Shown here one piece after another: positions 4,160 through 22,366 of a DNA stretch of 22,366 nt (position 1 is its first letter; every line of letters starts with the position of its first letter). The notes beneath the pieces were generated by a model, which saw only the letters and a list, made by a program, of their open reading frames with translations, had not been told where the DNA came from and made no database searches. The translations under genes and the position numbers were made by a program. The stretch is from a virus (lineage: Duplodnaviria > Heunggongvirae > Uroviricota > Caudoviricetes), in IMG/VR virus record IMGVR_UViG_2861079508_000002. One strand, given 5' to 3'.

Positions 4160-4244
4160 GTAAGCGTAAACCGACCGCCGTATGTAGCCATTAGACAAGA
4201 ATTGGTAACTTAGACGCCCATCTGACACAGACGGACATCTAAGT

Positions 4245-4664: not shown

Positions 4665-5011
4665 TCTCACTCCCGTCAGGCACCCGCATCTGGCTCGTTG
4701 CCGGCGTTACCGATATGCGTAAATCCTTCAACGGACTGGGAGAACAGGTACAGCATGTGCTGAATGATAATCCCTTCTCCGGTCACCTGTTCATCTTCCG
4801 TGGCCGACGGGGTGACACGATTAAAATCCTGTGGGCTGATGCTGATGGTCTGTGCCTGTTCACCAAACGCCTGGAGGAAGGCCAGTTTATCTGGCCTGCG
4901 GTACGTGACGGCAAGGTATCCATTACCCGTTCGCAACTGGCAATGCTCCTCGATAAGCTGGACTGGCGTCAGCCAAAAACATCCCGTCTTAACGCACTGA
5001 CAATGTTGTAA
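4661..5011 (+). CDS. tnpB: IS66-family TnpB (Orf2), 116 aa
   Basis: Second ORF, ATGA overlap with orf1; size and sequence character typical of IS66 Orf2 (recalled). Confidence 0.85.
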   Translation: MISLPSGTRIWLVAGVTDMRKSFNGLGEQVQHVLNDNPFSGHLFIFRGRRGDTIKILWADADGLCLFTKRLEEGQFIWPAVRDGKVSITRSQLAMLLDKLDWRQPKTSRLNALTML

Positions 5012-5041
5012 AAATGTCATGGCCGGATTATAAAAACGGTC

Positions 5042-6655
5042 ATGAGTCAGAAATACCTCATTCGGATCACTGAGCTGGAAAGGTTGCTCTCTGAGCAGGC
5101 TGAAGCCCTCCGTCAGAAAGACCAACAACTGAGTCTGGTTGAAGAGACGGAGGTCTTCCTGCGTTCTGCGCTGGCACGTGCCGAAGAAAAGATCGAAGAA
5201 GATGAGCGGGAAATAGAGCATCTGCGGGCCCAGGTGGAAAAACTGCGCCGGATGCTGTTCGGTACCCGTTCTGAAAAACTGCGTCGTGAAGTTGAACAGG
5301 CTGAAGCCCTGCTGAAACGACGCGAACAGAACAGCGATCGTTACAGCGGGCGTGAGGATGACCCGCAGGTTCCCCGCCAGTTGCGACAGTCGCGTCATCG
5401 TCGCCCGTTACCGGCGCATCTGCCCCGCGAAATAAACCGCCTGGAGCCAGAAGAAAGCTGTTGCCCGGAGTGTGGTGGTGAGCTGGATTATCTGGGGGAA
5501 GTCAGCGCAGAACAACTGGAACTGGTGAGCAGCGCCCTGAAAGTGATCCGCACAGAACGGGTAAAAAAAGCCTGTACAAAATGTGACTGCATCGTTGAAG
5601 CACCGGCACCGTCCCGTCCGATAGCGCGTGGTGTCGCGGGCCCGGGGTTACTTGCCCGCGTGTTAACGGGAAAATACTGCGAACACCTGCCACTGTATCG
5701 TCAGAGTGAAATCTTTGCCCGTCAGGGTGTCGAACTGAGCCGTGCGTTACTCTCCAACTGGGTTGACGCGTGCTGCCAGTTAATGACGCCGCTGAATGAT
5801 GCCCTGTACCGTTACGTGATGAACACCCGCAAGGTTCACACTGATGACACACCAGTAAAAGTGCTGGCACCGGGCAGGAAGAAGGCGAAAACAGGATATA
5901 TCTGGACGTATGTCCGGGATGACAGGAATGCCGGTTCGCCAGAGCCTCCGGCGGTCTGGTTCGCCTACTCACCGGATCATCAGGGGAAACATCCGGAGCA
6001 GCACCTTCGTCCCTTCCGGGGTATCCTGCAGGCAGATGCGTTTAATGGCTACGATCGGCTGTTCAGTGCCGGACGTGAAGGCGGCGCGTTGACGGAAGCA
6101 GGATGCTGGGCTCATGCGCGACGTAAAATCCACGATGTATATATCAGTACCAAAAGCGCGACAGCGGAAGAAGCCCTGAAACTAATCGGTGAACTGTACG
6201 CCATCGAGCACGATATACGCGGGTTACCGGTGTCTGAACGCCTGGCGGTCAGGCAAATGCAGAGTAGACCGCTCCTGACTTCCCTGTATAAGCTGATGCA
6301 GGAGAAAGAACACACGTTATCGAAGAAATGTCGTCTGGGAGATGCGTTCCGGTATATCCGGAAGCACTGGGCTGCGTTGTGCAACTTCTGTGATGATGGC
6401 CTGGCTGAGGTAGATAATAATGCCGCAGAAAGAGCGCTTCGTGCAGTCTGTCTCGGGAAGAAAAATTATGTGTTCTTCGGCAGCGATCACGGTGGCGAGC
6501 GTGGAGCACTGTTGTACGGGCTGATCGGCACCTGCCGACTGAACGGTATAGATCCGGAAGCGTATCTGCGCCATATCCTGGGTGTACTGCCGGAATGGCC
6601 TTCCAACCGTGTTGACGAGCTCCTGCCATGGAACGTAGCACTCACCAATAAATAA
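5042..6655 (+). CDS. tnpC: IS66-family transposase TnpC (Orf3), 537 aa
   Basis: Large third ORF with N-terminal coiled-coil-like region, Cys cluster CPECGG...CTKCDC and a long catalytic domain; ends 30 nt before the right IR. Confidence 0.9.
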   Translation: MSQKYLIRITELERLLSEQAEALRQKDQQLSLVEETEVFLRSALARAEEKIEEDEREIEHLRAQVEKLRRMLFGTRSEKLRREVEQAEALLKRREQNSDRYSGREDDPQVPRQLRQSRHRRPLPAHLPREINRLEPEESCCPECGGELDYLGEVSAEQLELVSSALKVIRTERVKKACTKCDCIVEAPAPSRPIARGVAGPGLLARVLTGKYCEHLPLYRQSEIFARQGVELSRALLSNWVDACCQLMTPLNDALYRYVMNTRKVHTDDTPVKVLAPGRKKAKTGYIWTYVRDDRNAGSPEPPAVWFAYSPDHQGKHPEQHLRPFRGILQADAFNGYDRLFSAGREGGALTEAGCWAHARRKIHDVYISTKSATAEEALKLIGELYAIEHDIRGLPVSERLAVRQMQSRPLLTSLYKLMQEKEHTLSKKCRLGDAFRYIRKHWAALCNFCDDGLAEVDNNAAERALRAVCLGKKNYVFFGSDHGGERGALLYGLIGTCRLNGIDPEAYLRHILGVLPEWPSNRVDELLPWNVALTNK

Positions 6656-6685
6656 GTATCAATACGGCACTCCGTTAACGCTTAC

Positions 6686-6693
6686 GTTCCTTT
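6686..6693. repeat. 8-bp target-site duplication GTTCCTTT, right copy
   Basis: Identical to 4152-4159. Confidence 0.8.
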
Positions 6694-8456
6694 CCATGTA
6701 CGCCTTTAAAGAAAGTTGCTGATTGCTTCCTGTTCCGGTGTAACGCATTAATAAACTTCTCAACACTGATATTTCCAGACGGATCAGTCGCCTTATCTAC
6801 AGCATTCTGAACTATGGCTGCTCGTGCGTTTTGCCTACCATTGTCATCCAGAAGCCTGTAAAGCTGAGAACGTTCTGATGGGCTTTGGCTAAAAACGAGT
6901 TTTGTTACATCCTCAGGCGTGGCCTTGCCGCTGGCTATTGCCTTTTGAACGCGCGTTCTTCCCATCATGTCATTGAATTTAGACCATGAGCGATCAACCC
7001 TTGCCATATTAATGGCTTCGTCTGCTCCAAGATTTTTGGCTACGGCTTTTTTCATATCCGCCGTATATGCCTTATAGATAATATCGCTGGCTTTCTGGAG
7101 CGTATCTTTATCAACAGTGTCAGATGACGCCATAAATCGCTTTCGAAGATCGGTTCTGTTTTCCCTCGCCAGACGCAGGTCATTTGGTCCGCTGGTGATA
7201 TCGTCTTTAAATTGCTGCAAGACTTTTACCGCGGCTCTATCCTGAGATTTACCCGGGCGGCTTAACACGGCAATCTGATTGTCGATAGCTTTTACCGTGT
7301 TTGAGAGATCGACAGGGGTATCCCCCATAGCGTCAATTATGCGGTTATATCGCTTTCCTGCTGCCTCAATGAATTTTTGTTGCCCTTTAGTCGCAGATTC
7401 ATAAAGCTGTTTATCAGAAATGCCACCCAGACCATCGCTAAATGTTCTGACTAAATTTTCTCGTGCTTGTTGTTGATTCAGCCGATTCTTACCGGTTCCA
7501 AAAAAAGGAACTCTTTCGCCTAATGTCTGAGCCTGACTCTGCATAAAGGTTTTATCTTTCAGCATGTCACTGGTCATTAACGGCAGATTTCTTTCCGATG
7601 CAAAGTCGACAGCAGCCTTTGCTTCAGGCGACATATCACCACGAACAGCCCTCGAAACCGCACTCGCTGTATTTTCCAGCCCCTTACCAATACCACCAAT
7701 GCCAGCAGAAATTACCGTTTGTAACGGATCAATATCTTCTCCACCAGCGAGGCTGGTGGCTCCCTGTAGTGCTAAATCTGTAGCTGCTGATTTCCCTATG
7801 GCCCCCAGCACCGTTCCGGCCCTGCCCGCTGGTGTAAACGCCAGCGCATTAGCCAGAAACGATGCCACGTCTTGCGGCGATAAACCCGGCTTGTTCAGAG
7901 CATAATCACCGGATGGCAGGGAAACGATAGTGTTACCCTTCTCATCCTGCCTTAATTTCGCTCCCATGCTCTGAAGAATCTTTTCCTGAGATGCGTCAGA
8001 GCCGAAAAGTTGAGACCATCGAGCTTTTAGAGCATCCATGCTGAGTGAGGTTAACTCTGGGGCAAGGTCGACATTTTGCAGTCTCTCCATCTCTGGAGTC
8101 ATTCGGCTTTCGCCTGTTATAGCATCGCGCATCGCAGCCCCAAGGCTGGCTCCCTGTTCTGCTGAACGCTCAAGCCCCTCTCTTTGCTGAGTAGCTAACT
8201 TTGCATACCCTGACGCAAGAGAATTATCAGATGATGTATGTTGAATATTTTGAGTTGCTGATTGGGATCGGTCTATTTCATTCGTTGATGGTAGTGGATA
8301 GGCAGCATAAAAAGCCTGCTTAGCCTGCTCTACACTTTCTCCGGCTTGCGGGGCCACGACTTCATTGAAGTATTGCTCCTGAGCCTGCGCTTTTTGTTCT
8401 GGTGCTAACGCCTGATACTGTGGAGAGGCGATAACATCTTTCCATGCTTTAGCCAT
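6686..8456 (-). pseudogene. 5' fragment (about 590 codons) of the IS-disrupted gene; large Gln/Ala-rich virion/ejection-like protein (P22 gp16-position)
   Basis: ORF-track ORF 6675..8456; its last 3 codons and stop are IS sequence. Start overlaps the upstream stop as TAATG at 8454-8458. Confidence 0.7.
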
Positions 8457-9877
8457 TAATCACCCCATAGTGAAGAAAAGTTACTGCTGGCTGCTGGCTG
8501 TGATACCTGCTCAGATTGCGGCAATGTCTGCGACGAAGAAGAAGTTCCTCTGTCAACTGCTAAAATAACCCGCAAAGCATCATAAGCTCGACCAGAAGCA
8601 GCTTTCAGCGAATTGAACTGGTTTTCCATCTTCCGGCGCTTGGTATCAATGGTTTTTGTGGAGTCGCCAGGCTGAGGGAAATACATTTGATAATATTTTG
8701 ACATTTCAGCAGGTACGATAGCTGCCCCTGTTTCCTGACGGAGTATTGCCATTATTGCGTCATTAGCATTAACAACGTATTGCTGCTCTGTTGGGCTGAG
8801 CGTTAAGTTAGCCAGCGTCCCATTACCCAAAGCATTATTAATGACCGCCACTCGCTGTGGGCTAAGCTGGTCTTTCAGTGTATCTATTGAATCAAGAGCA
8901 TCCCTAACCCTGTATGCAAATCCAGCAGCTTTTTTAGCCCCTTCTGGCGACTTTTCCATGATCTTTTGGGCTGTTGGCAAAGCTATTGGACGAAATCCAT
9001 CTCCAGATATTGGCTGGTTTAGTTTTCCCTGCTCTTCACTTCCGTCTGTGTAGTATTTTGTGACAGTGCCATCATCGTTTTCTCTAACACTCATTAATTT
9101 TTTGGCGTTTGTATTAATTCCAGCCGCTGCCGCAAATGCCGCCGCCCCCTCTGGATCCGCCTTTAACATTTGAGCGTACTGATTGTAATTCTGCATTGCT
9201 GCTGTTGGTGCATATGCTGACGTTAACGCATTTGCTCGGCTAATATCCTGCCCTCTCGCCTGAAGTGCTTCGCCAGCCTGATTGCTGCGGATTGTCTCTG
9301 CCAACTTGCCACGCTCAATATCCCGACCTTCCATTTGATCTTTGATATCGAAATACTTCTCATGACCGAGAGAAAACAGTGCCATACTACCAGCAAGCCG
9401 CTGGAACCCCTGTGGATCATTAACATGCATTTCGGCAACAGACTCAGGAGAAATTCCCAAGCGACGCATTTCATCTTCGTTATCTGCTATGAATTTTCCA
9501 AATGCCCCAGTTCCGAGCGAAGATGCGATTTGAGCACTAGTCGCAAGATGACCAATAGAATTTCTCTGGTCGTCATCAATAAAGCCCATCCCTTTCTGAA
9601 CGCTTTCAAATTCTTCTGGATACTCAGAAATAAGACTGCGCATTTTGTTTCTGTCTCCAGACTCAAAAGCCCCGGCATATGCTTTCTGAAACTCTGCTTT
9701 ACGCTGTTGTTGACGTGCCTGCTGATTAATCTCAGCAACGCCTCTTAGCCCCTGTAGCGCCATTAAACCTACGTTTGGCTGCTGCTGATACTGCACAGGC
9801 TGAGGAACGGAAGAACGAGGAGCATTATCATTTTGCGGTGCCATGCTAGGCAGCCCGCCAAGTTGCCATGTCGCCAT
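8456..9877 (-). CDS. 473-aa protein, candidate P22 gp20-like ejection protein
   Basis: Translationally coupled at both ends (TAATG). Size matches P22 gp20 (471 aa, from memory); Gln/Ala-rich. No profile search done. Confidence 0.5.
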   Translation of the reverse strand: MATWQLGGLPSMAPQNDNAPRSSVPQPVQYQQQPNVGLMALQGLRGVAEINQQARQQQRKAEFQKAYAGAFESGDRNKMRSLISEYPEEFESVQKGMGFIDDDQRNSIGHLATSAQIASSLGTGAFGKFIADNEDEMRRLGISPESVAEMHVNDPQGFQRLAGSMALFSLGHEKYFDIKDQMEGRDIERGKLAETIRSNQAGEALQARGQDISRANALTSAYAPTAAMQNYNQYAQMLKADPEGAAAFAAAAGINTNAKKLMSVRENDDGTVTKYYTDGSEEQGKLNQPISGDGFRPIALPTAQKIMEKSPEGAKKAAGFAYRVRDALDSIDTLKDQLSPQRVAVINNALGNGTLANLTLSPTEQQYVVNANDAIMAILRQETGAAIVPAEMSKYYQMYFPQPGDSTKTIDTKRRKMENQFNSLKAASGRAYDALRVILAVDRGTSSSSQTLPQSEQVSQPAASSNFSSLWGD

Positions 9878-10554
9878 TAGAATCCAAGCCCCCCAACAAG
9901 ACCAATAAGCCCACCACCAATAGCGCCGGCCGCAGTTCCTATTCCAGGAACAACGGAACCAAGTTGCGCACCCGCTAAAGCGCCTGATGCTGCCCCACCA
10001 ATACCACGCGCAAGACTGGATGGCTGCTGCGCCTGACCTGCACGAATAGCGCCAAGCCCCTGCAAGAGTTGTCCGGTATTATTGGCGTAGTTTTGCCCTG
10101 CCGTTGCCTGCCCTGATGCCGCATTCATCCCGACATTTAGCAGGTTTCCATAATTTTGCATTTGCCCACTAAGCCAATTGTTATAAAGCATGGGCGCAAT
10201 GGAAGATAACTGGTTACTGGTAGCTGTTGAGCCAAGCCCCCCGGTAGCTTCTGCTGAGACAAGGTTCTGATAACGGGCCTGATCTGCCTGTGTTTTATAT
10301 AAACCAGAACCAAAGAAATCATTCGCGGCTTTATTCTGCCCTTCCAGAGTCATCAGTCCTTGTAGTTGTTGTAAAGCAGGCAATCCGACTTCTGCATACG
10401 GCTTGAGATTATTCATCACCGTATTCCACTGCTCGCGCTGCAAATCAATTGCCTGCTGCTGGGCCTTCGCCTGAGCTTTAGAGGCACCACCATCACCGCC
10501 TTTTTCGTATACGGCACGATTGAGATGTTTATGAGCTATATGGGTAATTAACAT
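9877..10554 (-). CDS. 225-aa Gly/Ala/Gln-rich protein with glycine-zipper-like C-terminus, candidate P22 gp7-like ejection protein
   Basis: Start overlaps the upstream stop (ATGTTAA). N-terminal YEKGGDGGASK and C-terminal GIGGAASGALAGAQLGSVVPGIGTAAGAIGGGLIGLVGGLGF; size close to P22 gp7 (229 aa, recalled). Confidence 0.5.
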   Translation of the reverse strand: MLITHIAHKHLNRAVYEKGGDGGASKAQAKAQQQAIDLQREQWNTVMNNLKPYAEVGLPALQQLQGLMTLEGQNKAANDFFGSGLYKTQADQARYQNLVSAEATGGLGSTATSNQLSSIAPMLYNNWLSGQMQNYGNLLNVGMNAASGQATAGQNYANNTGQLLQGLGAIRAGQAQQPSSLARGIGGAASGALAGAQLGSVVPGIGTAAGAIGGGLIGLVGGLGF

Positions 10555-11009
10555 TCGCTGAATTCCTTATATTGTTGCCGAGTTAACTGATAAAGCGTTA
10601 CGCCGACGGGTTTACCACATCTGATATAAGCATCATCAAGGTGACCAACACGGGTAGCGCCAAGCAAACGGATAATTGCCCGTCCGTATTTCGTGGTGTC
10701 AGGAACCATGGTAATGCTGTTAAGGAATGGTGAGTTTTCGAGAAGCCATTTGCAGAATAATCGATGCCCTTGCAGTGCATATTCACCACGGAATCCGGGG
10801 TCGTACACCGCATGGCATTCAACAACGCTATGCCAGAAGTTACGCACTTCATGAACGCCAGCCAGCACCAATCCTTCGTAGATGCCGAGATATACCGCAT
10901 CAGGCTTGATGTAGTACGTGTGCCCCGGCTCAACAATATTTTCGGTATTGGCAGGCTCGTTAAGAAAGGCCTGTAATCGCACCGGGTTATCAATAAATTT
11001 TAGTTCCAT
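10548..11009 (-). CDS. 153-aa protein, first large gene of the operon (P22 gene-14 position)
   Basis: ATG at 11007-11009 with GGATGG about 10 nt upstream; stop overlaps the next start. Assignment by synteny only. Confidence 0.45.
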   Translation of the reverse strand: MELKFIDNPVRLQAFLNEPANTENIVEPGHTYYIKPDAVYLGIYEGLVLAGVHEVRNFWHSVVECHAVYDPGFRGEYALQGHRLFCKWLLENSPFLNSITMVPDTTKYGRAIIRLLGATRVGHLDDAYIRCGKPVGVTLYQLTRQQYKEFSEC

Positions 11010-11026
11010 GCGGTGCCATCCATTTT

Positions 11027-11188
11027 CACATACAGCCTGCCAGCGCCTTATCTATTAACCCTCGTGCAATTTCATGCAGAGTTGGCGCTACTCCAATTCC
11101 TGATTTTTTACGCTGCTCTTCCTGAATTTTCTTTATCGCTTCCATTTGCTTCTCACTTATCAATACCGGCTTTACTGAAATAGCCATA
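11027..11188 (-). CDS. 53-aa small protein, possible RHH/Arc-type regulator (below the ORF-track size cutoff)
   Basis: My own translation MAISVKPVLISEKQMEAIKKIQEEQRKKSGIGVAPTLHEIARGLIDKALAGCM; GGGGG SD 4-5 nt upstream of the ATG; TGA lies 16 nt before the next ATG. Minus-strand TATAAT at 11221-11226. Confidence 0.35.
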
Positions 11189-11280
11189 ACGCCCCCTTAG
11201 AACTGTATAAAACAACAGTTATTATAGTTTCACAAATCGCAATATTCATCATCGTAATTGCAAAATATGAAACAAATAGC

Positions 11281-11315
11281 ACAAAAAAATGCCACCGCTC
11301 AGTAGCTGGTGGCAT
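11281..11315 (-). terminator. Rho-independent terminator (8-bp stem ATGCCACC/GGTGGCAT, 11-nt loop, T6-7 run on the minus strand)
   Basis: Plus strand AAAAAAATGCCACCGCTCAGTAGCTGGTGGCAT; hairpin then T-run when read on the minus strand. Separates the primase island from the ejection-like operon promoter. Confidence 0.55.
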
Positions 11316-11681
11316 CGTTCTGTGTGTCAGGTTTTGACAGGTTTTTTATGGACTCTAAAAACTATATTTATGGTATCGCATTACTCTTCACGGCAGGCGC
11401 TTTTCAGTTCTGCCCTTGCTTCTGGCTCCATTGGTAATTTGATTCGCGATCAGCTATGCGGATGGTTTGCTGAACAGGCATAACAACATCTCAGAGGCTA
11501 TTTTTTGAACTACGAAAATTTCGTAGGTCTCTCCTTCAAAAACGTCACGCCCTTGTACACTGGATTTTACAAAAGTCTCGTAAAACTCTTTCCTGTTCTG
11601 GGCTATGTGCCAAACCGCAGCGAATACCTCCGTCTGCCAGATGAGCAAAACATACCTTATAAAGAAAATCGCTGTTTTTGC

Positions 11682-11786
11682 TGTACCACCTGTACCACCA
11701 TGTCACAAACCCTTGTGTGGCGCGGCCTGTAGGTGGTACAGGTGGGTAAAAATGACCTCTCCCCACCTGTACAGACCTGTACCATT
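11682..11786. repeat. iteron-like cluster B: direct and inverted copies of core GGTGGTACAGGT
   Basis: ACCTGTACCACC at 11688-11699 (partial TGTACCACC at 11682-11690), GGTGGTACAGGT at 11732-11743, partial inverted copies near 11765-11772 and 11776-11785. Immediately after the stop of gene 11790..12527. Confidence 0.6.
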
Positions 11787-11789
11787 TAT

Positions 11790-12527
11790 TTAATTTTTAC
11801 CCATAGCAGCACATAATCCCTTTTTTGAAATATTGAAAAATGCGTTCATTCTTCCCGCTGGCTTAACCTTGTAGCCGCTTGCCACCATCGCCGCAATAAA
11901 TGCTCCGTTGGGGATATAGTGCGGGTGATCACTGTGCTGGTGGTTTATCTGGTTATATCGCTCCACTTCATGCTTCAACGTGTCAGATGTGGGGTTATCC
12001 TGCGGGAAGCTCTCAATCTGGGCATTACTCATCCCGTTGTCTCTGATCCATCTCAGGCAGCTTTTCGCCGATACGATAAATGACGGGTTATCAAGCGGGT
12101 TTTCCCAGTCCGCATTCCGGTTGTGGAGCGCCAGTCCGTCAAGGTTAAATTGTGGGTATTCAGCGGTAATTACTGTCACTGCGTGGCGGATTTCAGTCTC
12201 GTCACAACATGGCTCATCTCCCACACCAGCAGGGTAATAATCTGAACCACCGGGACTGATACAGCGTTTACCACTGAAAGGCCATTGCTTCGCCATTTCG
12301 GGTGTTGAGTGATTACCGTCGCTCCGTTCGCGCTGTGCCTCTGTCCACTGGCTGGCATATTCAGTAAATGAAACCCTTTGCCCCTGGCGCATCCAGTGCG
12401 CAATCATAATTAAAGTGCGTTCCAGACTTTGGATGTCGCCAGCATTCCCGCACTGTGTAGCGAAACTTTTTAATTCTTCGCGCTCCGTTCTGGTCATTCC
12501 CTGCGGTATGCAATAGTTATTGTTCAT
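11790..12527 (-). CDS. 245-aa hypothetical protein (Cys/His-containing)
   Basis: ORF-track ORF; ATGA overlap with the upstream 78-aa gene; bracketed by iteron clusters. No recognisable motif by eye. Confidence 0.55.
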   Translation of the reverse strand: MNNNYCIPQGMTRTEREELKSFATQCGNAGDIQSLERTLIMIAHWMRQGQRVSFTEYASQWTEAQRERSDGNHSTPEMAKQWPFSGKRCISPGGSDYYPAGVGDEPCCDETEIRHAVTVITAEYPQFNLDGLALHNRNADWENPLDNPSFIVSAKSCLRWIRDNGMSNAQIESFPQDNPTSDTLKHEVERYNQINHQHSDHPHYIPNGAFIAAMVASGYKVKPAGRMNAFFNISKKGLCAAMGKN

Positions 12528-12760
12528 GTTTTACCTCTCTGTTTTACCTCTCTGATTTCTGCTGCCATATCTGTTGGCTCTATACAGCCGTCCCGACTTG
12601 CCACGCAGGGAATAATGATTTCAACGGTATCGCCGTCAATACACATTTCAACATTCGCCCATGCCGCAATGGGTAGCCAGTCTGAACGCCCCTCAAACCG
12701 TAGCTGCCAGCCAGAGGAAGAAGCTAACTGGCGCACTTTGTAAAATGGTGTGCTCATCAT
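12524..12760 (-). CDS. 78-aa hypothetical protein
   Basis: ATG-ATG start at 12755-12760; coupled to the 245-aa gene. The intergenic region upstream holds iteron cluster A. Confidence 0.5.
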   Translation of the reverse strand: MMSTPFYKVRQLASSSGWQLRFEGRSDWLPIAAWANVEMCIDGDTVEIIIPCVASRDGCIEPTDMAAEIREVKQRGKT

Positions 12761-12801
12761 TGGTTGTTCCCTCTCAGCCAGCCAGAAGAAATGCGTTTGT
12801 T

Positions 12802-12907
12802 AATGGTATAGGTGGTACAGGTCTGGTATAGGTAAGATATTGACCTGTACCACTATAACGCACTGTTTTTAATACTGAATTAGCAAAATGGTATAGGTGG
12901 TACAGGT
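12802..12907. repeat. iteron-like cluster A: exact 21-mer AATGGTATAGGTGGTACAGGT twice plus an inverted copy between
   Basis: 21-mer at 12802-12822 and 12887-12907; partial copy 12825-12834; inverted ACCTGTACCACTATA at 12843-12857. Between the primase stop (12937) and gene start (12760). Confidence 0.65.
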
Positions 12908-12936
12908 AAAAACGTTCTTCTTGTAAAAAGACTATA

Positions 12937-15291
12937 TTAAAAAACATCATAACCCCCCATACCGATCAGACGTGCAAACGCAGCCTGTAGAACTCCGACC
13001 TCTGGTAGTTCGTAGAACACGCCATTCCCACGGTCTGGTCTTCCATGCTTCACCAGTCCCATTTGTGCAAGTGATTTACCCAGTAGTGATCTGGCTGCTG
13101 GTTCTTTAAGCTTTTCCCCACGCTCAAGCGACCACGCTACAAATCGACTAACCATATCCTTTGCAAACAAACGGACTTCGCCATTAAACGGAGGTTCATT
13201 GATTAGCTCGCCATAAAGAAACAATTCAACGCCAGACAGCCCCAGCAAGATTTCTTCACGTAAGGCATCGGTCTGTGGCGCTCGTTGAGGGTCAAAACCT
13301 GAGAGATCCACCCCTTTAAGATGCCAAAGCAACTTTGCGGCACCGCCATCATTAAGCCAACTGTACAGCCGATCAAAATACTCCCGGCTCTGTGCTTTTT
13401 CAGGAGATGGCTCAAGCACGAGATAGCGGCGCTCTCTTATCCCTGCCTGTAATACCTGTGTGCTGTTACTGGCAAATATCAACCGGGCAAAATTCGGCAT
13501 TGGTTCAGCATCAATTCCCTTGCGCTCAAGGTTAAACGTCGGTTCGCTAATAATCGCTTTAAGTCTGTCAGCTTCAGACGGCTTGTGGATCGTCACTTCG
13601 TCAGCAAATACCAGTAGCTTGTTAGCAAGTATTGAATTGAAGCGCCCTGAAATATGTCCCGCCCCGTTAATGTGGGCGGCGTACTGCCCCAGTATTTGCA
13701 GCAGCGGTTTAACCGTTGTGCCTTTCCCTGTGCCCGGGACAGATTTCATCACGATTGCCACGGACGGTTTTTCATCAGGCTTTTGGATAATGTGCGCCAT
13801 CCACTGGATAAGATATTGGTATGCCTCTTCATTACCGGCACAGACAACCTGCAACAGGTGATTAAGGTATACCGTGCAATCTCCTTCAATTGGTTCCAGT
13901 GCCAGCCCCTCATACAGATTAAAAACATCGTCAGGGCATTTGTCTGGTACTGGATAAAATCCTACGCCTCCTGGCTTGTAGTTCTTCCCACTCCATGACA
14001 GCCACGCCGATCCCGCCAGCTTTCTGGCGACTCTCGGTTTATGATGAAAATAATGCTGAAATTGTGATAAATCCTCGAAAACGTGCGATACACCGCCGGT
14101 TTGAGAAGGCTTTAGCGACACCACCTTGTGTTTCCCGCCGATGGTGACATGCGTAAACGTCCGGTTGATTTCTTCGAGGACAGCAATTTCATCATCGCTT
14201 AACACCTCGCCAGAACTGATCTCATTCAGCGCCCCGACTGACTGTTTGTGATTTTTCACCTGCGCCCCTTTCCCCCGTGGCTGGTACATCGAATCTTTAA
14301 ATGCTGCTGTGGCTGCCGCCAGCCCGTGTTGTTGGTGATAGTCGTTCCAGTCGGCTTTATAGTCAGTCGGTGGCAGAGACACCCAGCCAGCTACGGAAAT
14401 AGCGGCCCTCTCTGCGGCATCTTTCCCCGTGTTGATCCCTCCACTTTCGGAGTTTCCTTGCTGGTGATCGTTATCTGCGGCAATGATGATTTGTGCCTGT
14501 GGATATGTTCTGCGCATGACTTCCGCTACTGGCAACAGGTTGCCAGCGTCGATTGCTGCCACTGTCATTGCGTCAGGGCGAATTAAATGGCACGACAGGG
14601 CGGTAGCCACCCCCTCAGCAATTATGATGCTGTGAGGTCGTTTCTGTGCGTTTATGGCGTGATATGCCCCCCGCTTTGCTGAACCTGTCAGGAGTCTTTT
14701 TTCACCATGTGAGGTAATTGTCTGTGCTGCTGTGACTGCGCCGGATTTATCCACCAGCGCCAGCAACAGAGATCCATCGGGCAACACGGGGAATGTAAAA
14801 TCACCTACCCCTTTCGCAACCAGATAATCAGATTTGCCGTTTACAGCCTTTCTGCGCATGTCATCAAACTGACGGGAAAACGTATCCCGTCTTTGTTGTT
14901 CGTCCTTCTCTGCCCTTTTCAGGCGCTCCTGTTCGCGTCGCTGGCGCTCGGTTTCCAGTTGTTCCCGTTTCTGGCTGGTGGCTTCTGGTGTTTCCGTTGT
15001 CCGGTAATCAATACCCAGAACATCAGCGGCAAGCAGCGCCGCCTCTGTTGTGTCGCAGTTATTTACGCGTTTAATTAAATCCAGCCCATCACCAGCGCCG
15101 CACTGATTACAGATGAAGCTACCGCGCCCGTTGTCATCGAACCGGAATCGATCTTTGCCCCCACATGCAGGGCAGGGAGCATGACGGCGCGGAGAGTCAG
15201 GGACATTTATGTTCAGGCAGCCCAGCACATGAGGCCAGTTGTTTTCAGACGCACTGATAACCTGACGGATAAGATCAATGTTTCGCATCAC
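12937..15291 (-). CDS. P4 alpha-type primase-helicase (784 aa)
   Basis: N-terminal Zn-ribbon CPACGGKDRFRFDD...CNQCGAGDG; central toprim-like region; C-terminal Walker A VPGTGKGTT. Architecture typical of P4 alpha / PICI Pri-Rep proteins. GTG start at 15291, ATG one codon later. Confidence 0.9.
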   Translation of the reverse strand: MMRNIDLIRQVISASENNWPHVLGCLNINVPDSPRRHAPCPACGGKDRFRFDDNGRGSFICNQCGAGDGLDLIKRVNNCDTTEAALLAADVLGIDYRTTETPEATSQKREQLETERQRREQERLKRAEKDEQQRRDTFSRQFDDMRRKAVNGKSDYLVAKGVGDFTFPVLPDGSLLLALVDKSGAVTAAQTITSHGEKRLLTGSAKRGAYHAINAQKRPHSIIIAEGVATALSCHLIRPDAMTVAAIDAGNLLPVAEVMRRTYPQAQIIIAADNDHQQGNSESGGINTGKDAAERAAISVAGWVSLPPTDYKADWNDYHQQHGLAAATAAFKDSMYQPRGKGAQVKNHKQSVGALNEISSGEVLSDDEIAVLEEINRTFTHVTIGGKHKVVSLKPSQTGGVSHVFEDLSQFQHYFHHKPRVARKLAGSAWLSWSGKNYKPGGVGFYPVPDKCPDDVFNLYEGLALEPIEGDCTVYLNHLLQVVCAGNEEAYQYLIQWMAHIIQKPDEKPSVAIVMKSVPGTGKGTTVKPLLQILGQYAAHINGAGHISGRFNSILANKLLVFADEVTIHKPSEADRLKAIISEPTFNLERKGIDAEPMPNFARLIFASNSTQVLQAGIRERRYLVLEPSPEKAQSREYFDRLYSWLNDGGAAKLLWHLKGVDLSGFDPQRAPQTDALREEILLGLSGVELFLYGELINEPPFNGEVRLFAKDMVSRFVAWSLERGEKLKEPAARSLLGKSLAQMGLVKHGRPDRGNGVFYELPEVGVLQAAFARLIGMGGYDVF

Positions 15292-17067: not shown

Positions 17068-17258
17068 TTTTCACCACCAAGAATTACCAGCTCTGCACGG
17101 GCATCGTTAACCAAAGATGAGCACGCTTTAATCGCATCCACGACATCAGCAGCGTCCATTTCTTCAGCCGAAAGACTGACAGCAACCAGGACAGCCGCTG
17201 CTTGCTCGATTAATTGAAGTGCGGACGTAAGGCGAGGGGTATTAATTGAGTTATTCAT
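17064..17258 (-). CDS. 64-aa hypothetical protein (preferred ATG at 17258; track start 17315 is GTG)
   Basis: ATG at 17256-17258 has GGGGG about 7 nt upstream and forms an ATGAATAA overlap with the upstream stop. Confidence 0.45.
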   Translation of the reverse strand: MNNSINTPRLTSALQLIEQAAAVLVAVSLSAEEMDAADVVDAIKACSSLVNDARAELVILGGEK

Positions 17259-17469
17259 TGGTTGCCCCCGTTTTGCATGGCATTTGTCCACCTTCCAGCA
17301 GGAAATGAACGTCACGAACGGCGAGATCCAATATCGCGAGTAACGCCTTCAGTTTTTCGTCTCGTGAGGGAGAGTTGCTCACCAGAATGTCATTAATCAC
17401 TTCTGTCAGTGTGATGATCTGGCTTGTGCGTTCGAGGGGATCCATATGCACATCGTAGGTTTTAATCAT
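17251..17469 (-). CDS. 72-aa hypothetical protein; may be an independent gene or the C-terminus of the long ORF from 18282
   Basis: ATG at 17467-17469 with strong GGAGGTG SD; balanced helical-looking composition (MIKTYDVHMDPLERTSQIITLTEVINDILV...). In frame with ORF 17251..18282. Confidence 0.5.
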   Translation of the reverse strand: MIKTYDVHMDPLERTSQIITLTEVINDILVSNSPSRDEKLKALLAILDLAVRDVHFLLEGGQMPCKTGATNE

Positions 17470-17656
17470 GTGCCACCTCCATGCGGATACGACCAGCAAA
17501 AAAGCAGACGTGATCGCGCACCAGAGAACGGCGAGCATCGCGTTCAGACTCGGCAGCAATATGATGAATTTTGGCGGTAATTGTCGGGCAATCGCGGCGA
17601 ACTGCGGCGATAATCCAGATAAATTGCGGTTTTTGGGTAGGGGTAGTAGCCAGCAT
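17462..17656 (-). CDS. 64-aa hypothetical protein, overlaps the long ORF in another frame
   Basis: GGAGG 7 nt upstream of the ATG at 17654-17656; stop overlaps the ATG of the 72-aa gene. Conflicts with the long-ORF model. Confidence 0.4.
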   Translation of the reverse strand: MLATTPTQKPQFIWIIAAVRRDCPTITAKIHHIAAESERDARRSLVRDHVCFFAGRIRMEVAHD

Positions 17657-18282
17657 GTGGCATCCTCCGATAACGTTGGCTTGTTATAACCACCGCAGAA
17701 GAGACCAATCTTGCTGGCGGTGGACTGTACGGAGTTGGCCTTACTGGCGTTATCGGAAACCAGCCTACCCGAAGGTAGCCCCATACAGCCCACCATTGAT
17801 AAGGTGTGCGTGTGCGCCGATACAAAAAAAGACGCTGGCGCGTCATGTATCGCCGATAACTCCAGCAGGAGGCCAATCCCGGCACCCGTTTTATGAGGTG
17901 CCTTATAACCATAAACCGTGTTGCCGCATAACGGCAAGCTCTTTTTTATGGACTCCGAAAACTCACTATTGGAAGAACCAGAAGCACAGTACATCGCGCT
18001 CATTTCGTTAACGTCACGCGCATGGACGAAGGTTTTTGTGGAGTCACTACGCGAGAAGAGAAAGCCATCTACGACCAGAAATTCTCTGGCGCAGCCGCTG
18101 ACCTTCTCAACGCTAACACCATCGACCGTAATTTCTGACATGGTTAAGGCATCCGCTCCTACCACCAGCAAATGACAAACTTTGCTTGTATCTGCTGTAT
18201 TAATGCCTGACTTTGCTGTCATATTGCTGGATTTTGGCGACATACCAGCCAGTGAAAATATCTTCTTCTGGACGGTTAGCAT
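17470..18282 (-). other. ambiguous stretch: upstream part of ORF 17251..18282 (strong GGAGG SD at 18282), no in-frame stop, contains terminator-like hairpins
   Basis: Start at 18280-18282 overlaps the upstream stop by 7 nt. Minus-strand hairpin GACGC-GCCA-GCGTC plus T7 at 17824-17844; plus-strand hairpin TTGCCG-CATAA-CGGCAA plus T6 at 17921-17947. Several frames open on both strands. Confidence 0.3.
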
Positions 18283-19296: not shown

Positions 19297-19728
19297 TTAG
19301 GCGGCGGTGAGATTGTCCGGGTATAGATTGAGAATGTCGGCAATTTCCTGCTGAGAAAGTCCGTTGTGATCATTTATGTTCGCAAGATGGTTAACATGAG
19401 TGATCACTTTCAGAACATCACCACGGCAGGAGAAACGGTAGCGAAGGTGTGTTCCGATACCATCAGGATTCTTTTCGTCGATACGCTCCAGAGTGATTCC
19501 AAGCTGGCGTTCTAACTCTGTTGCATAGTTACGACCAGAAGACAGACGGCAGTAGCGAAGAATGTCATTTTCTGTCCATCCCTCTATACCAGTACGCAGC
19601 ATATAGACTCTGGCACGATGCTTTTTCGGTGTGCGCTTTGGTGCTTGAAGGGATTTTGTCAGGGGCGTAACATCAGATACGCGAATATCTGAATTAGCCG
19701 CCTGTAATGGGCGGTTTTTCTTTTCCAT
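19297..19728 (-). CDS. 143-aa hypothetical protein, possibly DNA-binding
   Basis: ATG overlaps the alpA-like stop (ATGA); AAGGTGG SD. Basic N-terminus. Confidence 0.5.
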   Translation of the reverse strand: MEKKNRPLQAANSDIRVSDVTPLTKSLQAPKRTPKKHRARVYMLRTGIEGWTENDILRYCRLSSGRNYATELERQLGITLERIDEKNPDGIGTHLRYRFSCRGDVLKVITHVNHLANINDHNGLSQQEIADILNLYPDNLTAA

Positions 19729-19931
19729 CAGGCCACCTTCCCGCGGCGTTCTGCCAGCCAGTTGTGAATCTCAACCGCATCAAACGCAGTTATTTTTTCT
19801 CCCAGCTTTACCGGACGTGGTAGTGAACCGTTTCTTACTTTACGGTCGATGGTGGATACACTAACGCCCAGCAATTCAGCCAGGCGGAAGCGTCTGATAT
19901 AGCCTTTTGTAGGAATAGTGTCGGTGTTCAT
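19728..19931 (-). CDS. alpA: AlpA/Vis-family HTH regulator (excisionase-like), 67 aa
   Basis: Short protein with RFRLAELLGVSVSTIDRKVRNGSLPRPVKLGEKITAFDAVEIHNWL, matching the AlpA-type motif; canonical position near a P4-type integrase. Confidence 0.7.
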   Translation of the reverse strand: MNTDTIPTKGYIRRFRLAELLGVSVSTIDRKVRNGSLPRPVKLGEKITAFDAVEIHNWLAERRGKVA

Positions 19932-20000
19932 GCTTCCCGTAACCTCTTAGCGATAGTTGTTGCTTCGTTACGGGAGGAAGTATCTGTACATATATGAACA

Positions 20001-20029
20001 ATAAAAAGGCACAGTAATGATACTGTGCC
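20001..20029 (-). terminator. Rho-independent terminator (9-bp stem GGCACAGTA/TACTGTGCC, 4-nt loop, T5 run on the minus strand)
   Basis: Plus strand ATAAAAAGGCACAGTAATGATACTGTGCC; on the minus strand the hairpin is followed by TTTTTAT. Lies 17 nt downstream of the stop of gene 20046..21011. Confidence 0.6.
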
Positions 20030-20045
20030 TGAATAGTTAGCTACT

Positions 20046-21011
20046 CTACCCCTTACCGTTGGCGGCAGCACGTAAGTGTCTCAAAATCACATCTTCATTT
20101 GTGATTGCTAACGGTGGAATTTCGTCTTTATGAGCCACTATGCAATCCCGCCACTTCTCAGGGCTTATTTCTTTCTTTTTGCCACGGCATTCATCAGGAT
20201 ACTTTGACAAAAGATATATTGCAGATTTGAAAAGTTTTTCCCTGTTTTCAGCATGTCTCTCGGCATTATGGTTGCTATTTTTTATTTCAGGTATTAGTTC
20301 CTGTTCTACCGCCATTTCGTATCGTTTTTTGCTCTTAGCTGCGTCAAAACTTCCATTAACCTTTGCGTCATGAAGGTATTCTAAATCAGCCTTTGTTATA
20401 TAAATGTTTTTATCTGACAGGCTACTCAGGTGAATTTGGGAACTTTGCATTTTGAATTTATATAGATCACAATCAAATGTTGCTTCAAGTCGCACATATG
20501 GTTCTCCACATTCTTGTGAATGATAATGTCGTGTTGTTCTACCGCGTACACGCAACAATCCACATGCAATTGATTTTCTTACAATAAAAGAGTTTTTGCC
20601 AATTTGTTCAAAAACATTTTTATTGTCGCTGTCTTCAACTGTCAGTGGTTTATGTGCATAAAATAGCTCATAAGCACCGCTTTCAGATGCTGGGATATAA
20701 ACTTCGTTGCTTGCGCTGGTAATAAGAAAAGGAAATGTAAACCTTACTTCTTCTGGGTACATAAGTAATAAATCAGTTATAAAATTAGCATCTTTTTTGA
20801 AGTGGATGGTGGCATCAGATTCAATGAAATCAAGAAAGTCAGCATAGACATAAAAGTCTATATGTAGTCTATCTTTCCAATGCCATATATCATCAATTTC
20901 ACAATTTAATAATTTTGATGCTCGCTCTATCGTGCAGTAGTCCAAAGGTGGAATACCTGATTCCTGCCATAAATTTCTATGCACCACTGTTGTTTCATGA
21001 GAGTCGTTCAT
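20046..21011 (-). CDS. AT-rich 321-aa cargo protein of unknown function between integrase and alpA
   Basis: ORF-track ORF; AAGGTGA SD-like sequence upstream of the ATG; own terminator. Visibly lower GC than the flanking integrase and alpA. No motif recognised. Confidence 0.6.
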   Translation of the reverse strand: MNDSHETTVVHRNLWQESGIPPLDYCTIERASKLLNCEIDDIWHWKDRLHIDFYVYADFLDFIESDATIHFKKDANFITDLLLMYPEEVRFTFPFLITSASNEVYIPASESGAYELFYAHKPLTVEDSDNKNVFEQIGKNSFIVRKSIACGLLRVRGRTTRHYHSQECGEPYVRLEATFDCDLYKFKMQSSQIHLSSLSDKNIYITKADLEYLHDAKVNGSFDAAKSKKRYEMAVEQELIPEIKNSNHNAERHAENREKLFKSAIYLLSKYPDECRGKKKEISPEKWRDCIVAHKDEIPPLAITNEDVILRHLRAAANGKG

Positions 21012-21106
21012 TGCGTCACCTTTTACGCTGCGCCTTATTTTGTGATTGAGCCAGGCGGTAAGGCTTCCCGCTTTTCGCCCCGTCGAGCTAGGCTCAATCT
21101 ATTCAG

Positions 21107-22366
21107 TTAGTTCGCCCTTCTGAGAGGCGTTACGTTGTAGTCTTTTCCGCTTTCCAGTGCCACCAGCAGATCAGCCCACTGTGCCAGTGCTGCTTTACGC
21201 TCATCAAAATACTGATGGCGGTTATAAATCCCCTCTACGCCCTTAATGCGATGATTGAGGCATCGTTCCGCCACGACAGGATCAACACCCAACGCTGCTA
21301 AATGAGTACGTGCGGTGCGTCGGAAGTCGTGAATCGTGAAATTAGGCACATCCGGCATTTCGGCGCGAACCTTAGCCAGTGCTACGGGCAAAGTGCTTTC
21401 CTGAATATGTGGGATCATTCTGTTTTGCATCTTCCTGGCTGGAAGCACCCATGCGCTATTACATGAAAAGGTGTGTAGCTCTCTCAACCATTCAACGGCT
21501 GGGGAAGGTAGAGGTATATCAATAGGGTCTCCGTTTTTGCTGCGTTCTTCCGGCAAATGCCATACCGCACCATCTAAATCAAACTCTTCCCATCGTGCGG
21601 CGCATAACTCCATCTTACGAACGCATAGTGCCAGCAATAGCTTAAATGTCAGTTCGTTCTGGCGGCTGAATCCTTTTGCGGTGCGCATAGCCTCGAATAG
21701 CCTGATAAGCTCATCGCGAGTTAGCCAACGGTCGCGGGAAACCTCTTTACCACCAGCATCAGATACTTCAAACGCTGAACAAGGGTTTATCTCCAGAGCG
21801 TGGCGTTTTATCCCGTAGTCAAAGATACGGCGTGTCCAGCGTAATACATCTGTTGCTATCGTTGGTGCTCCTCGGTCAACGATACCTTTCAACATGTCGT
21901 CAATGTGGCGTGGCTTAACGTCCTCTACCTTCATATGCCCAATGCAGGGGTTAATATCCTTATCAATTCTCCGGCGAAGGATATCGGGATGTTTCCATCT
22001 CGGAAGTATCTGGCGCTCGAAGTATTCGGAGGCCAGATCTGAAACACGCATGGCGTTTTTCTCAGCCTCCATTTTTGCCAGTGCTTCAGCTTTTCGTTCC
22101 TGTTTCTCTGCTGCTACGTCATAGCCAAGAGCAACTCTGGCTGACAGCTCTTTTGCTGTTTCTCTGGCTTTTGATAGTGACAGTTCGGAGTAAGAGCCTA
22201 TAACCATAGCCCGCTGCTTTCCTGCGAGCTTATAGCGGAATCGCCAGAACGGGGCTGTGTAGTTTTTGGGGTAGCAAATATAAAGGCCGTTGCCGTCTGC
22301 CTTGCCATCAAATCTGTCTCCCGCCTTTATCCATGCGCGGATCTGCATATCTGTGAGTTTTGGCAT
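21107..22366 (-). CDS. int: P4-type tyrosine integrase (419 aa), start codon at the window edge
   Basis: N-terminal MPKLTDMQIRAWIKAG...GNGLYI...FWRFRYKLAGKQR typical of P4-family arm-binding domain; C-terminal catalytic motifs HDFRRTARTHL and GIYNRHQY. Promoter and att site lie beyond the window. Confidence 0.9.
   Translation of the reverse strand: MPKLTDMQIRAWIKAGDRFDGKADGNGLYICYPKNYTAPFWRFRYKLAGKQRAMVIGSYSELSLSKARETAKELSARVALGYDVAAEKQERKAEALAKMEAEKNAMRVSDLASEYFERQILPRWKHPDILRRRIDKDINPCIGHMKVEDVKPRHIDDMLKGIVDRGAPTIATDVLRWTRRIFDYGIKRHALEINPCSAFEVSDAGGKEVSRDRWLTRDELIRLFEAMRTAKGFSRQNELTFKLLLALCVRKMELCAARWEEFDLDGAVWHLPEERSKNGDPIDIPLPSPAVEWLRELHTFSCNSAWVLPARKMQNRMIPHIQESTLPVALAKVRAEMPDVPNFTIHDFRRTARTHLAALGVDPVVAERCLNHRIKGVEGIYNRHQYFDERKAALAQWADLLVALESGKDYNVTPLRRAN

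What the first reader, a model, noticed from the sequence alone, without database searches (positions are those of the whole stretch)
20001..21106. AT-rich single-gene cargo insulated by its own terminator between the integrase and alpA
The 321-aa ORF (20046-21011) has visibly lower GC than the integrase and alpA on either side. A strong minus-strand terminator (9-bp stem plus T-run, 20001-20029) sits 17 nt after its stop, so it forms its own transcription unit. An inverted repeat (TTGAGCC...GGCTCAA) lies in the 95-bp spacer upstream. The protein has no motif I can recognise. Integrase-proximal variable slots in P4-like and PICI-like islands are known hotspots for anti-phage and other accessory genes, and E. 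coli CP4-57 carries an uncharacterised gene of similar size in the same int-X-alpA position (recalled). This is a prime candidate for an uncharacterised single-gene defence or exclusion function.
Basis: partly seen in the sequence, partly recalled or inferred. Interest (0 to 1): 0.65.

Follow-up and report, generated by a model that had tools for sequence, protein, structure and literature searches.

The report
Swappable cargo gene in a phage satellite
The AT-rich 321-aa gene is real, exchangeable cargo sitting between the integrase and the alpA master regulator of an E. coli phage satellite; it founds an undescribed three-part protein family found almost only in that slot, and an anti-phage role is plausible but untested.

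Summary
ORF X (20046-21011, minus strand, 321 aa) has GC 0.369 and GC3 0.292, against about 0.50 for int and alpA. A strong intrinsic terminator follows it. A 9-bp inverted repeat lies upstream.

Two corrections apply. The inverted repeat is the curated Rfam motif "int-alpA RNA" (RF02996), which is a backbone element. No promoter was found, so only the 3' end of X is shown to be insulated.

The host element is a PICI/P4-type satellite next to yicC. Near-identical islands in E. coli carry at least seven different genes in this slot, and six alleles are each present in 24-112 of 5,426 genomes.

X has an acidic MerR/Xis-like winged helix, a hypervariable centre and a strongly conserved C-terminal helical module. 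That module is rare. In every assessable metagenome locus it sits in the order int, X-like, alpA.

X has no enzymatic fold, no reproducible defence-HMM match and no phage homologue. YfjH of CP4-57 is unrelated.

Best reading (0.45): a non-enzymatic protein that binds a phage protein and interferes with phage growth, carried in the known 5' accessory region of PICIs. Main rival (0.22): a helper-phage sensor that modulates AlpA-driven induction.

The parts
21107..22366 (-). P4-type tyrosine integrase (419 aa). It forms the upstream backbone flank of the slot. The window ends at its start codon.
   Evidence: Pfam Arm-DNA-bind_3, Phage_int_M and Phage_integrase. 95-99% identical in E. coli islands L002-L005 that carry other slot genes.
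21032..21098 (-). int-alpA RNA motif (Rfam RF02996).
   Evidence: 60.6 bits against a gathering score of 35.8, full length 1-71. The same motif lies upstream of different slot genes in L003, L004 and L008, and in Buttiauxella, Pectobacterium and Intestinirhabdus. Backbone homology runs up to the ATG of X.
20046..21011 (-). ORF X, 321 aa, the exchangeable slot gene.
   Evidence: GC 0.369, GC3 0.292. This allele is in 77 of 5,426 E. coli genomes.
20832..20960 (-). N-terminal module (about aa 18-60). It has a MerR/excisionase-like winged-helix fold and is acidic, with net charge -5.
20412..20831 (-). Hypervariable, beta-rich central module (about aa 61-200), the presumed specificity determinant.
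   Evidence: 7-14% identity to most family members. It falls to 35% in P0005, whose two ends are 83% and 86% identical to X. No fold match was found.
20049..20279 (-). Conserved C-terminal helical module (aa 245-321), with core ERHAxNRExLxKSAIxxLSKYPDECRGxxKEISPEKW...
19996..20030 (-). Intrinsic terminator of the cassette: 10-bp stem, 4-nt loop and a U-run.
   Evidence: z = -5.6. It lies inside the exchangeable segment, because backbone homology to L003 and L008 resumes only at 19974. The stem sequence is conserved across five genera while the loops vary, with compensatory and wobble changes.
19935..19975 (-). alpA-leader hairpin (TCCCGTAAC ... GTTACGGGA), ending 3 nt before the alpA ATG. It is a backbone element at the downstream edge of the slot.
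   Evidence: I3. Compensatory variants occur in L020 and L005. Analogous hairpins of unrelated sequence occur in L026, L028 and L013.
19728..19931 (-). alpA (67 aa), the AlpA/HTH_17 master regulator. It forms the downstream backbone flank.
   Evidence: Pfam Phage_AlpA, E = 2.2e-8. The same protein accession is annotated in islands carrying X and the L003 allele.

Best explanation
X is the exchangeable cargo gene of the 5' accessory slot (int to alpA) of a PICI/P4-type phage satellite integrated next to yicC.

Shown:
- The slot is bounded by two backbone elements, the int-alpA RNA motif and the alpA-leader hairpin.
- The segment between them, consisting of the ORF and its terminator, is swapped among near-identical islands.
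- X belongs to a three-module family: an acidic Xis/MerR-like winged helix, a hypervariable centre and a strongly constrained C-terminal helical module. It has no enzymatic fold.

Inferred:
- X is expressed in the quiescent island, probably on the int transcript through the int-alpA RNA leader.
- The terminator stops that transcription before alpA, so that expressing the cargo does not set off AlpA-driven induction.
- The hypervariable centre binds a phage-encoded protein, and the conserved ends provide a constant function such as oligomerisation or docking to a conserved partner.
- The outcome is stoichiometric interference with a competing or helper phage. In other words, this is satellite-encoded immunity that works by binding rather than by catalysis.
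For: - Satellite identity: int, alpA, PM1773-like gene, AntA, DUF4222, Ash with C4/isrK RNAs, a Zn-ribbon/Toprim/DUF5906 primase and captured P22-type late genes. This matches the four-zone organisation of Gram-negative PICIs (PMC10111431).
- Slot variability: seven different occupants of 208-321 aa, GC 0.35-0.44, in islands whose integrases are 79-99% identical to this one.
- Unrelated occupants exist: L004, L005, L009 and L025 show no relation to the X C-terminal module.
- Allele frequencies are intermediate: 77, 41, 38, 24, 112 and 34 of 5,426 genomes.
- Old alleles sit on young backbones: pS is 0.75 between X and L002 although their integrases are 99% identical.
- The centre diverges fastest.
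- The same AlpA protein and a 99%-identical integrase accompany the very different X and L003 alleles, so the cassette does not co-vary with the backbone.
- The terminator travels with the cassette.
- Literature: PICIs carry immune systems at their 5' and 3' ends (PMC11364771). PICI genes unknown to PADLOC and DefenseFinder have proved to be defences that act by binding, such as Tai (same paper).
- A characterised PICI, EcCICFT073, is helper-inducible apparently without a slot gene, which fits an accessory role (PMC6092414).
Against: - There is no experimental or homology link to any defence system. PADLOC gives only one sub-threshold hit that relatives do not reproduce.
- Known defence genes usually appear in several genomic contexts. 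This family is confined to the int-alpA slot: 13 of 13 metagenome loci with enough upstream sequence have int upstream, and 17 of 17 with enough downstream sequence have alpA downstream. Other genera show the same.
- It is absent from phages.
- No effector domain was found.
- Expression in the quiescent state is assumed. No promoter was found.
- The central-domain model is only moderately confident, with pLDDT 55-86.
Confidence: 0.45

Rival explanations
1. X is a helper-phage sensor that modulates satellite induction. It would keep AlpA-driven induction low, either by acting on the alpA leader or terminator region or by binding AlpA or RNA polymerase. It would release that hold when its hypervariable centre binds a helper-phage protein. 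This is a functional analogue of the SaPI Stl repressor with an unrelated architecture.
For: - The family is strictly linked to alpA. alpA lies 98-135 nt downstream in 17 of 17 assessable metagenome loci and in distant members. In L026 other genes separate the X-like gene from int but none separates it from alpA.
- The position next to int mirrors stl (PMC6092414).
- A hypervariable module flanked by constant ones is the pattern expected of a sensor under an arms race.
- The N-terminal fold is the same class as AlpA/Xis.
- A conserved hairpin core lies between X and alpA.
- How helpers induce alpA in Gram-negative PICIs, and whether a repressor exists, is stated to be unknown. No later paper on this was found.
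Against: - X is co-oriented with alpA and separated from it by a terminator, not divergently transcribed as stl is.
- The winged helix is acidic and lacks the basic recognition helix of AlpA.
- Cassettes with different N- and C-terminal modules sit on an identical AlpA and alpA leader, so there is no co-variation of protein and target.
- Unrelated proteins occupy the slot in sister islands.
- EcCIMP1, and apparently EcCICFT073, are helper-inducible without an X-family gene.
- L018 and L019 carry an X-like gene with no alpA.
Confidence: 0.22
2. X is an accessory factor for integration or excision. It would act as a cofactor or directionality modulator of the adjacent P4-type integrase through its Xis-like N-terminal domain.
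For: - X is immediately downstream of int and co-oriented with it in nearly all loci.
- X is possibly co-transcribed with int.
Against: - A 99%-identical integrase works with very different or unrelated slot proteins.
- AlpA already fills the excisionase/regulator role in these elements.
- The winged helix is acidic, which is unlike DNA-bending Xis proteins.
- Hypervariability of the centre has no rationale for a recombination cofactor.
Confidence: 0.08
3. X is another kind of moron, or a selfish or neutral passenger. Examples would be a regulator of host genes, like the PerC-like gene of EcCIMP1, or a gene kept only by hitch-hiking in a recombination hotspot.
For: - PICIs carry non-defence accessory regulators.
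- X has no recognisable effector.
- Low GC and a terminator are generic features of morons.
Against: - Strong purifying selection acts on the C-terminal module across genera, with pN 0.10-0.25 at saturated pS.
- Intact ORFs are kept at intermediate allele frequencies.
- Diversification centred on one module points to a selected, antagonistic interaction rather than to neutrality or host regulation.
Confidence: 0.15

Closest known systems
5' accessory (immune) region of phage-inducible chromosomal islands (Fillol-Salom et al., Cell 2022, as cited in PMC11364771); int-stl accessory region of SaPIs (PMC6092414)
   Same: A variable single-gene slot next to the integrase of a satellite, with low GC, its own terminator and rapid allele turnover on a conserved backbone.
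   Different: No anti-phage activity has been shown for X or any relative. Unlike typical hotspot cargo, the family is not found in other contexts. I could not read the Cell 2022 paper, so its gene list was not compared.
Tai (tail assembly inhibition) and similar non-enzymatic PICI defences (PMC11364771)
   Same: Single PICI genes unknown to PADLOC and DefenseFinder that act by binding a phage component. This is the kind of mechanism proposed for X.
   Different: Tai lies downstream of pri in PICIs and is mostly phage-borne. X has no phage homologues, and sequence similarity to Tai was not tested.
Stl/Rpr master repressors of Gram-positive PICIs
   Same: Adjacent to int, with highly polymorphic alleles, each thought to recognise a different phage protein. 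A constant part is joined to a variable sensing part.
   Different: Stl is divergently transcribed from the operon it represses, has a basic XRE-type HTH and co-varies with its operator. X is co-oriented with alpA behind a terminator, has an acidic winged helix and swaps independently of the alpA leader.
YfjH of E. coli K-12 cryptic prophage CP4-57 (intA-yfjH-alpA)
   Same: Similar size (318 aa) and the same position between a P4-type integrase and alpA. Its function is also unknown.
   Different: No sequence similarity (best E = 0.44) and the opposite strand. It is another occupant of the same kind of slot, not a homologue.
Rfam RF02996 int-alpA RNA motif (recalled: Weinberg et al. 2017 candidate structured RNAs)
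   Same: The inverted repeat upstream of X is a full-length member.
   Different: Its function is unknown. Here and in 7 other loci (two of them the same Pectobacterium contig) it precedes a slot gene rather than alpA itself.
MerR / excisionase (HTH_17, AlpA) winged-helix superfamily
   Different: No Pfam HMM match. The surface is acidic rather than basic. The CbpM-like protein-binding members of the fold are as good a model as the DNA-binding ones.

Membership tests
Cargo of the PICI/satellite 5' accessory slot | Lies between int and the master regulator of a satellite that has int, alpA and a primase | tested here: met
   The order is int, X, alpA, PM1773-like gene, AntA, Ash, primase.
Cargo of the PICI/satellite 5' accessory slot | Occupancy varies among otherwise syntenic, closely related islands | tested here: met
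   Seven occupants in yicC islands whose integrases are 79-99% identical to this one. Unrelated occupants were confirmed by hhalign.
Cargo of the PICI/satellite 5' accessory slot | Composition departs from the backbone | tested here: met
   GC 0.369 and GC3 0.292 against about 0.50; lowest 0.7% of windows.
Known anti-phage defence systems (PADLOC-DB v2) | Significant HMM match that is reproduced in relatives | tested here: not met
   Only PDC-S31 at E = 0.002 for X. No hits for 4 relatives and 6 alternative slot proteins.
Known anti-phage defence systems | Protects against phage infection | not testable with these tools
   This needs plaque or efficiency-of-plating assays.
Stl/Rpr-type satellite master repressor | Adjacent to int, with polymorphic alleles | tested here: met
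Stl/Rpr-type satellite master repressor | Divergently transcribed from the operon it controls, sharing a promoter-operator region with it | tested here: not met
   Same strand as alpA, with a terminator between them.
Stl/Rpr-type satellite master repressor | Basic DNA-binding HTH that co-varies with its operator | tested here: not met
   The N-terminal module has net charge -5, against +6 for AlpA. Different cassettes sit on an identical alpA and leader.
MerR/excisionase HTH_17 family | Pfam HTH_17, MerR or Phage_AlpA match | tested here: not met
   No such hit for X.
MerR/excisionase HTH_17 family | Winged-helix fold of that superfamily | tested here: inconclusive
YfjH (CP4-57) | Sequence homology | tested here: not met
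   BLASTP best E = 0.44, and the opposite strand.
Rfam RF02996 int-alpA RNA (for the upstream inverted repeat) | Covariance-model score above the gathering threshold | tested here: met
   60.6 bits against 35.8, model positions 1-71 of 71.
Intrinsic (Rho-independent) terminator | GC-containing stem-loop followed by a U-run, more stable than chance | tested here: met
   10-bp stem, TTTTTATTGTT tail, z = -5.6. Termination itself was not measured.

The most novel reading that the evidence does not exclude
X-family proteins could be the missing helper-phage sensors of AlpA-controlled islands. They would hold AlpA-driven induction in check through their conserved ends, acting on AlpA, RNA polymerase or the transcript or DNA between X and alpA. 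They would release it when the hypervariable centre captures a helper-phage protein. This would be an Stl-like logic built from an unrelated, non-XRE architecture, and it would explain why the family occurs only directly upstream of alpA.
Probability: 0.18. Interest if true: 0.85.

Novelty: new member of a known kind. Interest (0 to 1): 0.5.

Why it matters
Satellites such as PICIs are a proven reservoir of new anti-phage systems. Their 5' region is a known accessory site, but this protein family has no annotation, no Pfam or PADLOC model and no paper that I could find.

It offers a compact natural experiment. Two constant modules frame a swappable, fast-evolving centre. Several alleles are kept at intermediate frequency in E. 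coli on nearly the same backbone.

If X is a defence, it adds a non-enzymatic, binding-type immunity family with built-in specificity variants. If instead it tunes alpA, it bears on an open question stated in the literature: how helper phages induce Gram-negative PICIs, and whether a repressor exists.

The work also places the orphan Rfam motif int-alpA in a defined position, as the leader of the slot gene.

Tried and rejected
- **PADLOC hit PDC-S31 (E = 0.002).** Rejected as idiosyncratic, because none of 10 related or alternative slot proteins hit anything.
- **Zinc-finger idea for the C-terminal module (C275, C290, H294, H312).** Dropped, because C290 is replaced in L013, L003 and several distant members.
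- **Homology to YfjH.** Rejected.
- **C-terminal conservation caused by recent DNA exchange.** Rejected, because synonymous sites are saturated.
- **N-terminal motif as bait in the protein database.** It returned only short fragments and was uninformative.
- **Genome-contig scan.** It gave only 3 loci.
- **PDB sequence search with the C-terminal profile.** Nothing found.
- **Foldseek against viral structures.** Nothing below E = 0.07.
- **afdb50 library.** Not available.
- **Cell 2022 PICI-immunity paper and the supplement of Weinberg 2017.** Not held. What I say about them rests on citing papers and memory.
- **Two attempts to fetch EcCICFT073 from the CFT073 genome.** Both missed it. The statement that it lacks a slot gene rests only on the paper naming the gene after alpA as 'ORF3'.
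- **Palindrome after X as a DNA operator.** Judged less likely than an RNA hairpin, because G-U wobbles keep RNA pairing where the DNA symmetry is broken.

Full report
**1. The observation.**
The ORF exists as described, at 20046-21011 on the minus strand, with an ATG start and 321 aa. Its GC is 0.369 and its GC3 is 0.292. The integrase has 0.498/0.486 and alpA has 0.505/0.500. Only 0.7% of equally sized windows in the 22-kb sequence are as AT-rich.

Fifteen nucleotides after the stop codon lies a 10-bp stem with a 4-nt loop followed by TTTTTATTGTT, at 20030-19996 on the minus strand. Its folding energy is 5.6 standard deviations below that of shuffled sequence. The inverted repeat GATTGAGCC/GGCTCAATC is present at 21044-21052 and 21091-21099.

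**2. What the inverted repeat is.**
It is the outer stem of a full-length match to the curated Rfam family RF02996, 'int-alpA RNA'. The match covers 21032-21098 on the minus strand and scores 60.6 bits against a gathering score of 35.8.

The same motif sits between int and the downstream gene in E. coli islands with different slot genes (L003, L004, L008). It also does so in Buttiauxella, Pectobacterium and Intestinirhabdus. Backbone homology between islands runs through this motif and stops exactly at the ATG of X. The motif is therefore a backbone element that serves as leader to whatever gene occupies the slot. It is not part of X.

No sigma-70-type promoter was found in the spacer or in the int 3' end. 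That X forms its own transcription unit is thus shown only for the 3' end.

**3. The element.**
Identical DNA occurs in complete E. coli chromosomes next to yicC. On the minus strand the gene order is:
- int
- X
- alpA
- a 'PM1773 family' gene
- an AntA antirepressor
- DUF4222
- Ash, with P4-type C4 and isrK immunity RNAs inside it
- small ORFs
- a Zn-ribbon/Toprim/DUF5906 primase
- P22-type ejection-protein genes cut by an IS66

The layout matches the Integration/Bro/Replication/Late organisation described for Gram-negative PICIs, including captured helper late genes (PMC10111431).

**4. The slot is variable.**
A 3-kb query spanning int, X and alpA matches 687 E. coli genomes, but only 75 over at least 80% of its length. 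Islands sampled at the same yicC site have the same flanks and a different gene of 208-321 aa between them, always of low GC, 0.35-0.44.

Homology ends either at the ATG of X or at the int stop codon. On the other side it resumes at about 19974, upstream of alpA but downstream of the terminator. In L004 and L005 it resumes only at 19918, inside alpA. In L002 and L007 it already resumes at 20246, so those islands share the C-terminal module and terminator with X. The exchangeable unit is thus the ORF plus its terminator.

Allele-specific probes give the following counts among 5,426 genomes:

| Allele | Genomes |
|---|---|
| X | 77 |
| L002-type | 41 |
| L003-type | 38 |
| L004-type | 24 |
| L005-type | 112 |
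| L008-type | 34 |

Each allele is essentially single-copy and chromosomal. Profile comparison shows that L003 is a true relative of X, L008 is at most a partial one, and L004, L005, L009 and L025 are unrelated in the C-terminus. YfjH of CP4-57 occupies the same kind of position, but it is unrelated and on the other strand.

**5. The protein.**
X has no Pfam, NCBIfam or PHROG family. Its homologues are all about 200-380 aa and share an unusual pattern.

- **Centre (about aa 61-200).** It is hypervariable, at 7-14% identity to most relatives. It drops to 35% in a protein whose ends are 83% and 86% identical to X.

**6. Distribution.**
The C-terminal module is rare. It is found in 38 clusters at 50% identity among 1.84 billion representatives, and it is C-terminal in the full-length hits. 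It occurs in 3 of about 185,000 species-representative genomes. It has no homologue in 50,697 phage genomes and no viral structural match.

Wherever context could be read, the gene follows an integrase and precedes alpA, co-oriented with both. This holds in Buttiauxella, Pantoea and Pectobacterium. It also holds in a Klebsiella 22-kb circular satellite filed as a plasmid and in two very distant members.

In a metagenome scan, 13 of 13 loci with enough upstream sequence had int upstream. In the same scan, 17 of 17 loci with enough downstream sequence had alpA 98-135 nt downstream.

There are two partial exceptions. In L026, other genes lie between int and the X-like gene. In an Enterobacter island embedded in a prophage, the X-like gene has no alpA next to it.

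**7. Interpretation.**
The slot behaves as published PICI accessory regions do. PICIs are reported to carry immune systems at their 5' and 3' ends (PMC11364771). SaPIs carry accessory genes between int and stl (PMC6092414).

The features of X fit a moron-like cargo gene engaged in an antagonistic interaction:
- low GC
- a terminator that travels with the gene
- several alleles kept at intermediate frequency
- diversification centred on one module
- independence from the backbone, since the same AlpA and integrase accompany very different alleles

Because no catalytic domain is present, the most economical mechanism is stoichiometric binding of a phage protein by the variable centre, with the conserved ends supplying a constant function. 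I give this 0.45. It rests on inference, because no defence HMM supports it.

The main rival, at 0.22, is that the family tunes AlpA-driven induction in response to a helper phage. The strict linkage to alpA supports this. So does the stated ignorance of how Gram-negative PICIs are induced. Several findings weaken it:
- the co-orientation with alpA behind a terminator
- the acidic winged helix
- the lack of co-variation with alpA or its leader
- helper-inducible PICIs that have no such gene

A role as integrase cofactor (0.08) or another kind of passenger (0.15) is less likely still.

**8. The terminator in context.**
The hairpin stem after genes with the X-type C-terminus is almost identical in five genera, while the loop is free. 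L002 shows one compensatory change, and G-U wobbles preserve RNA pairing. A good U-run follows only in the E. coli alleles X and L002/L007.

In this window it is a credible intrinsic terminator. Its likely job is to stop transcription from int and X from reaching alpA, whose expression alone induces a PICI. That step is inferred and has not been measured.

**9. Verdict.**
The feature is real and the 'variable slot' reading is right. The 'defence gene' reading remains plausible and untested. The gene is a new, uncharacterised member of a known kind of locus. Its one unusual property, strict confinement to the position directly upstream of alpA, keeps a more interesting regulatory reading alive.

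Noticed in passing
window 17713-17800 (-) and 17825-17901 (-): Full-length Rfam matches to C4 antisense RNA (77 bits) and isrK (62 bits) lie inside the Ash-family ORF (17251-18282). This is a P4-type CI/seqA immunity RNA pair. The same pair occurs in the Pantoea (L016) and Enterobacter (L018) islands.
   Followed up: partly
window 19935-19975 (-); also L020, L005, L026, L028, L013: A hairpin ends 3 nt before the alpA start codon and spans its RBS region. Compensatory variants occur (CCCCATAAC/GTTATGGGG in L020; AGTAAC/GTTACT in L005). In distant islands, hairpins of unrelated sequence occupy the same place. It could be a translational or autoregulatory element of alpA. An RNA structure and a DNA palindrome cannot be told apart here.
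   Followed up: partly
window 6675-11009 (-) and 4245-6655 (+): The satellite's late zone carries P22-type DNA-ejection genes (gp7-, gp20- and gp16-like, plus DUF2824). The gp16-like gene is truncated by an IS66 element (HTH_Tnp_1, TnpB_IS66 and DDE_Tnp_IS66 ORFs).
   Followed up: partly
window about 3000-3800 and 1751-2239 (-): A second strongly AT-rich stretch (GC 0.32-0.375) contains a 204-aa ORF (3183-3797, +) with no Pfam match. It lies near a Peptidase_M78/IrrE-type ORF (1751-2239). It may be further accessory cargo beyond the IS66.
   Followed up: no
window 20581-20626, and 20645-20573 (-): Inside X there is an 18-nt imperfect inverted repeat (ACAATAAAAGAGTTTTTG / CAAAAACATTTTTATTGT, 89% complementary). 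There are also two promoter-like sites on the coding strand. Both may simply reflect AT-richness.
   Followed up: no
L018 and L019 (Enterobacter cloacae complex), 1-12963: An island carrying an X-family gene is inserted directly after prophage terminase, portal and Mu-F-like genes. It has no alpA between the X-like gene and Bro-N. This resembles the helper-embedded PICIs of PMC10111431.
   Followed up: no
L029 (CP031371.2, 21,845 bp, Klebsiella pneumoniae 'plasmid' pKpvST101_4): A circular record of about 22 kb filed as a non-mobilizable plasmid has the gene order X-like, alpA, antirepressor, DUF4222. It is probably an excised or episomal satellite, and two similar records exist.
   Followed up: partly
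L005 and L022, locus coordinates 932-1403 and 2354-2826: The most frequent slot allele, a 216-aa protein found in 112 genomes, overlaps the int stop codon. It is followed by a non-coding, AT-rich stretch of about 470 bp before alpA. It occurs with two different downstream modules.
   Followed up: no
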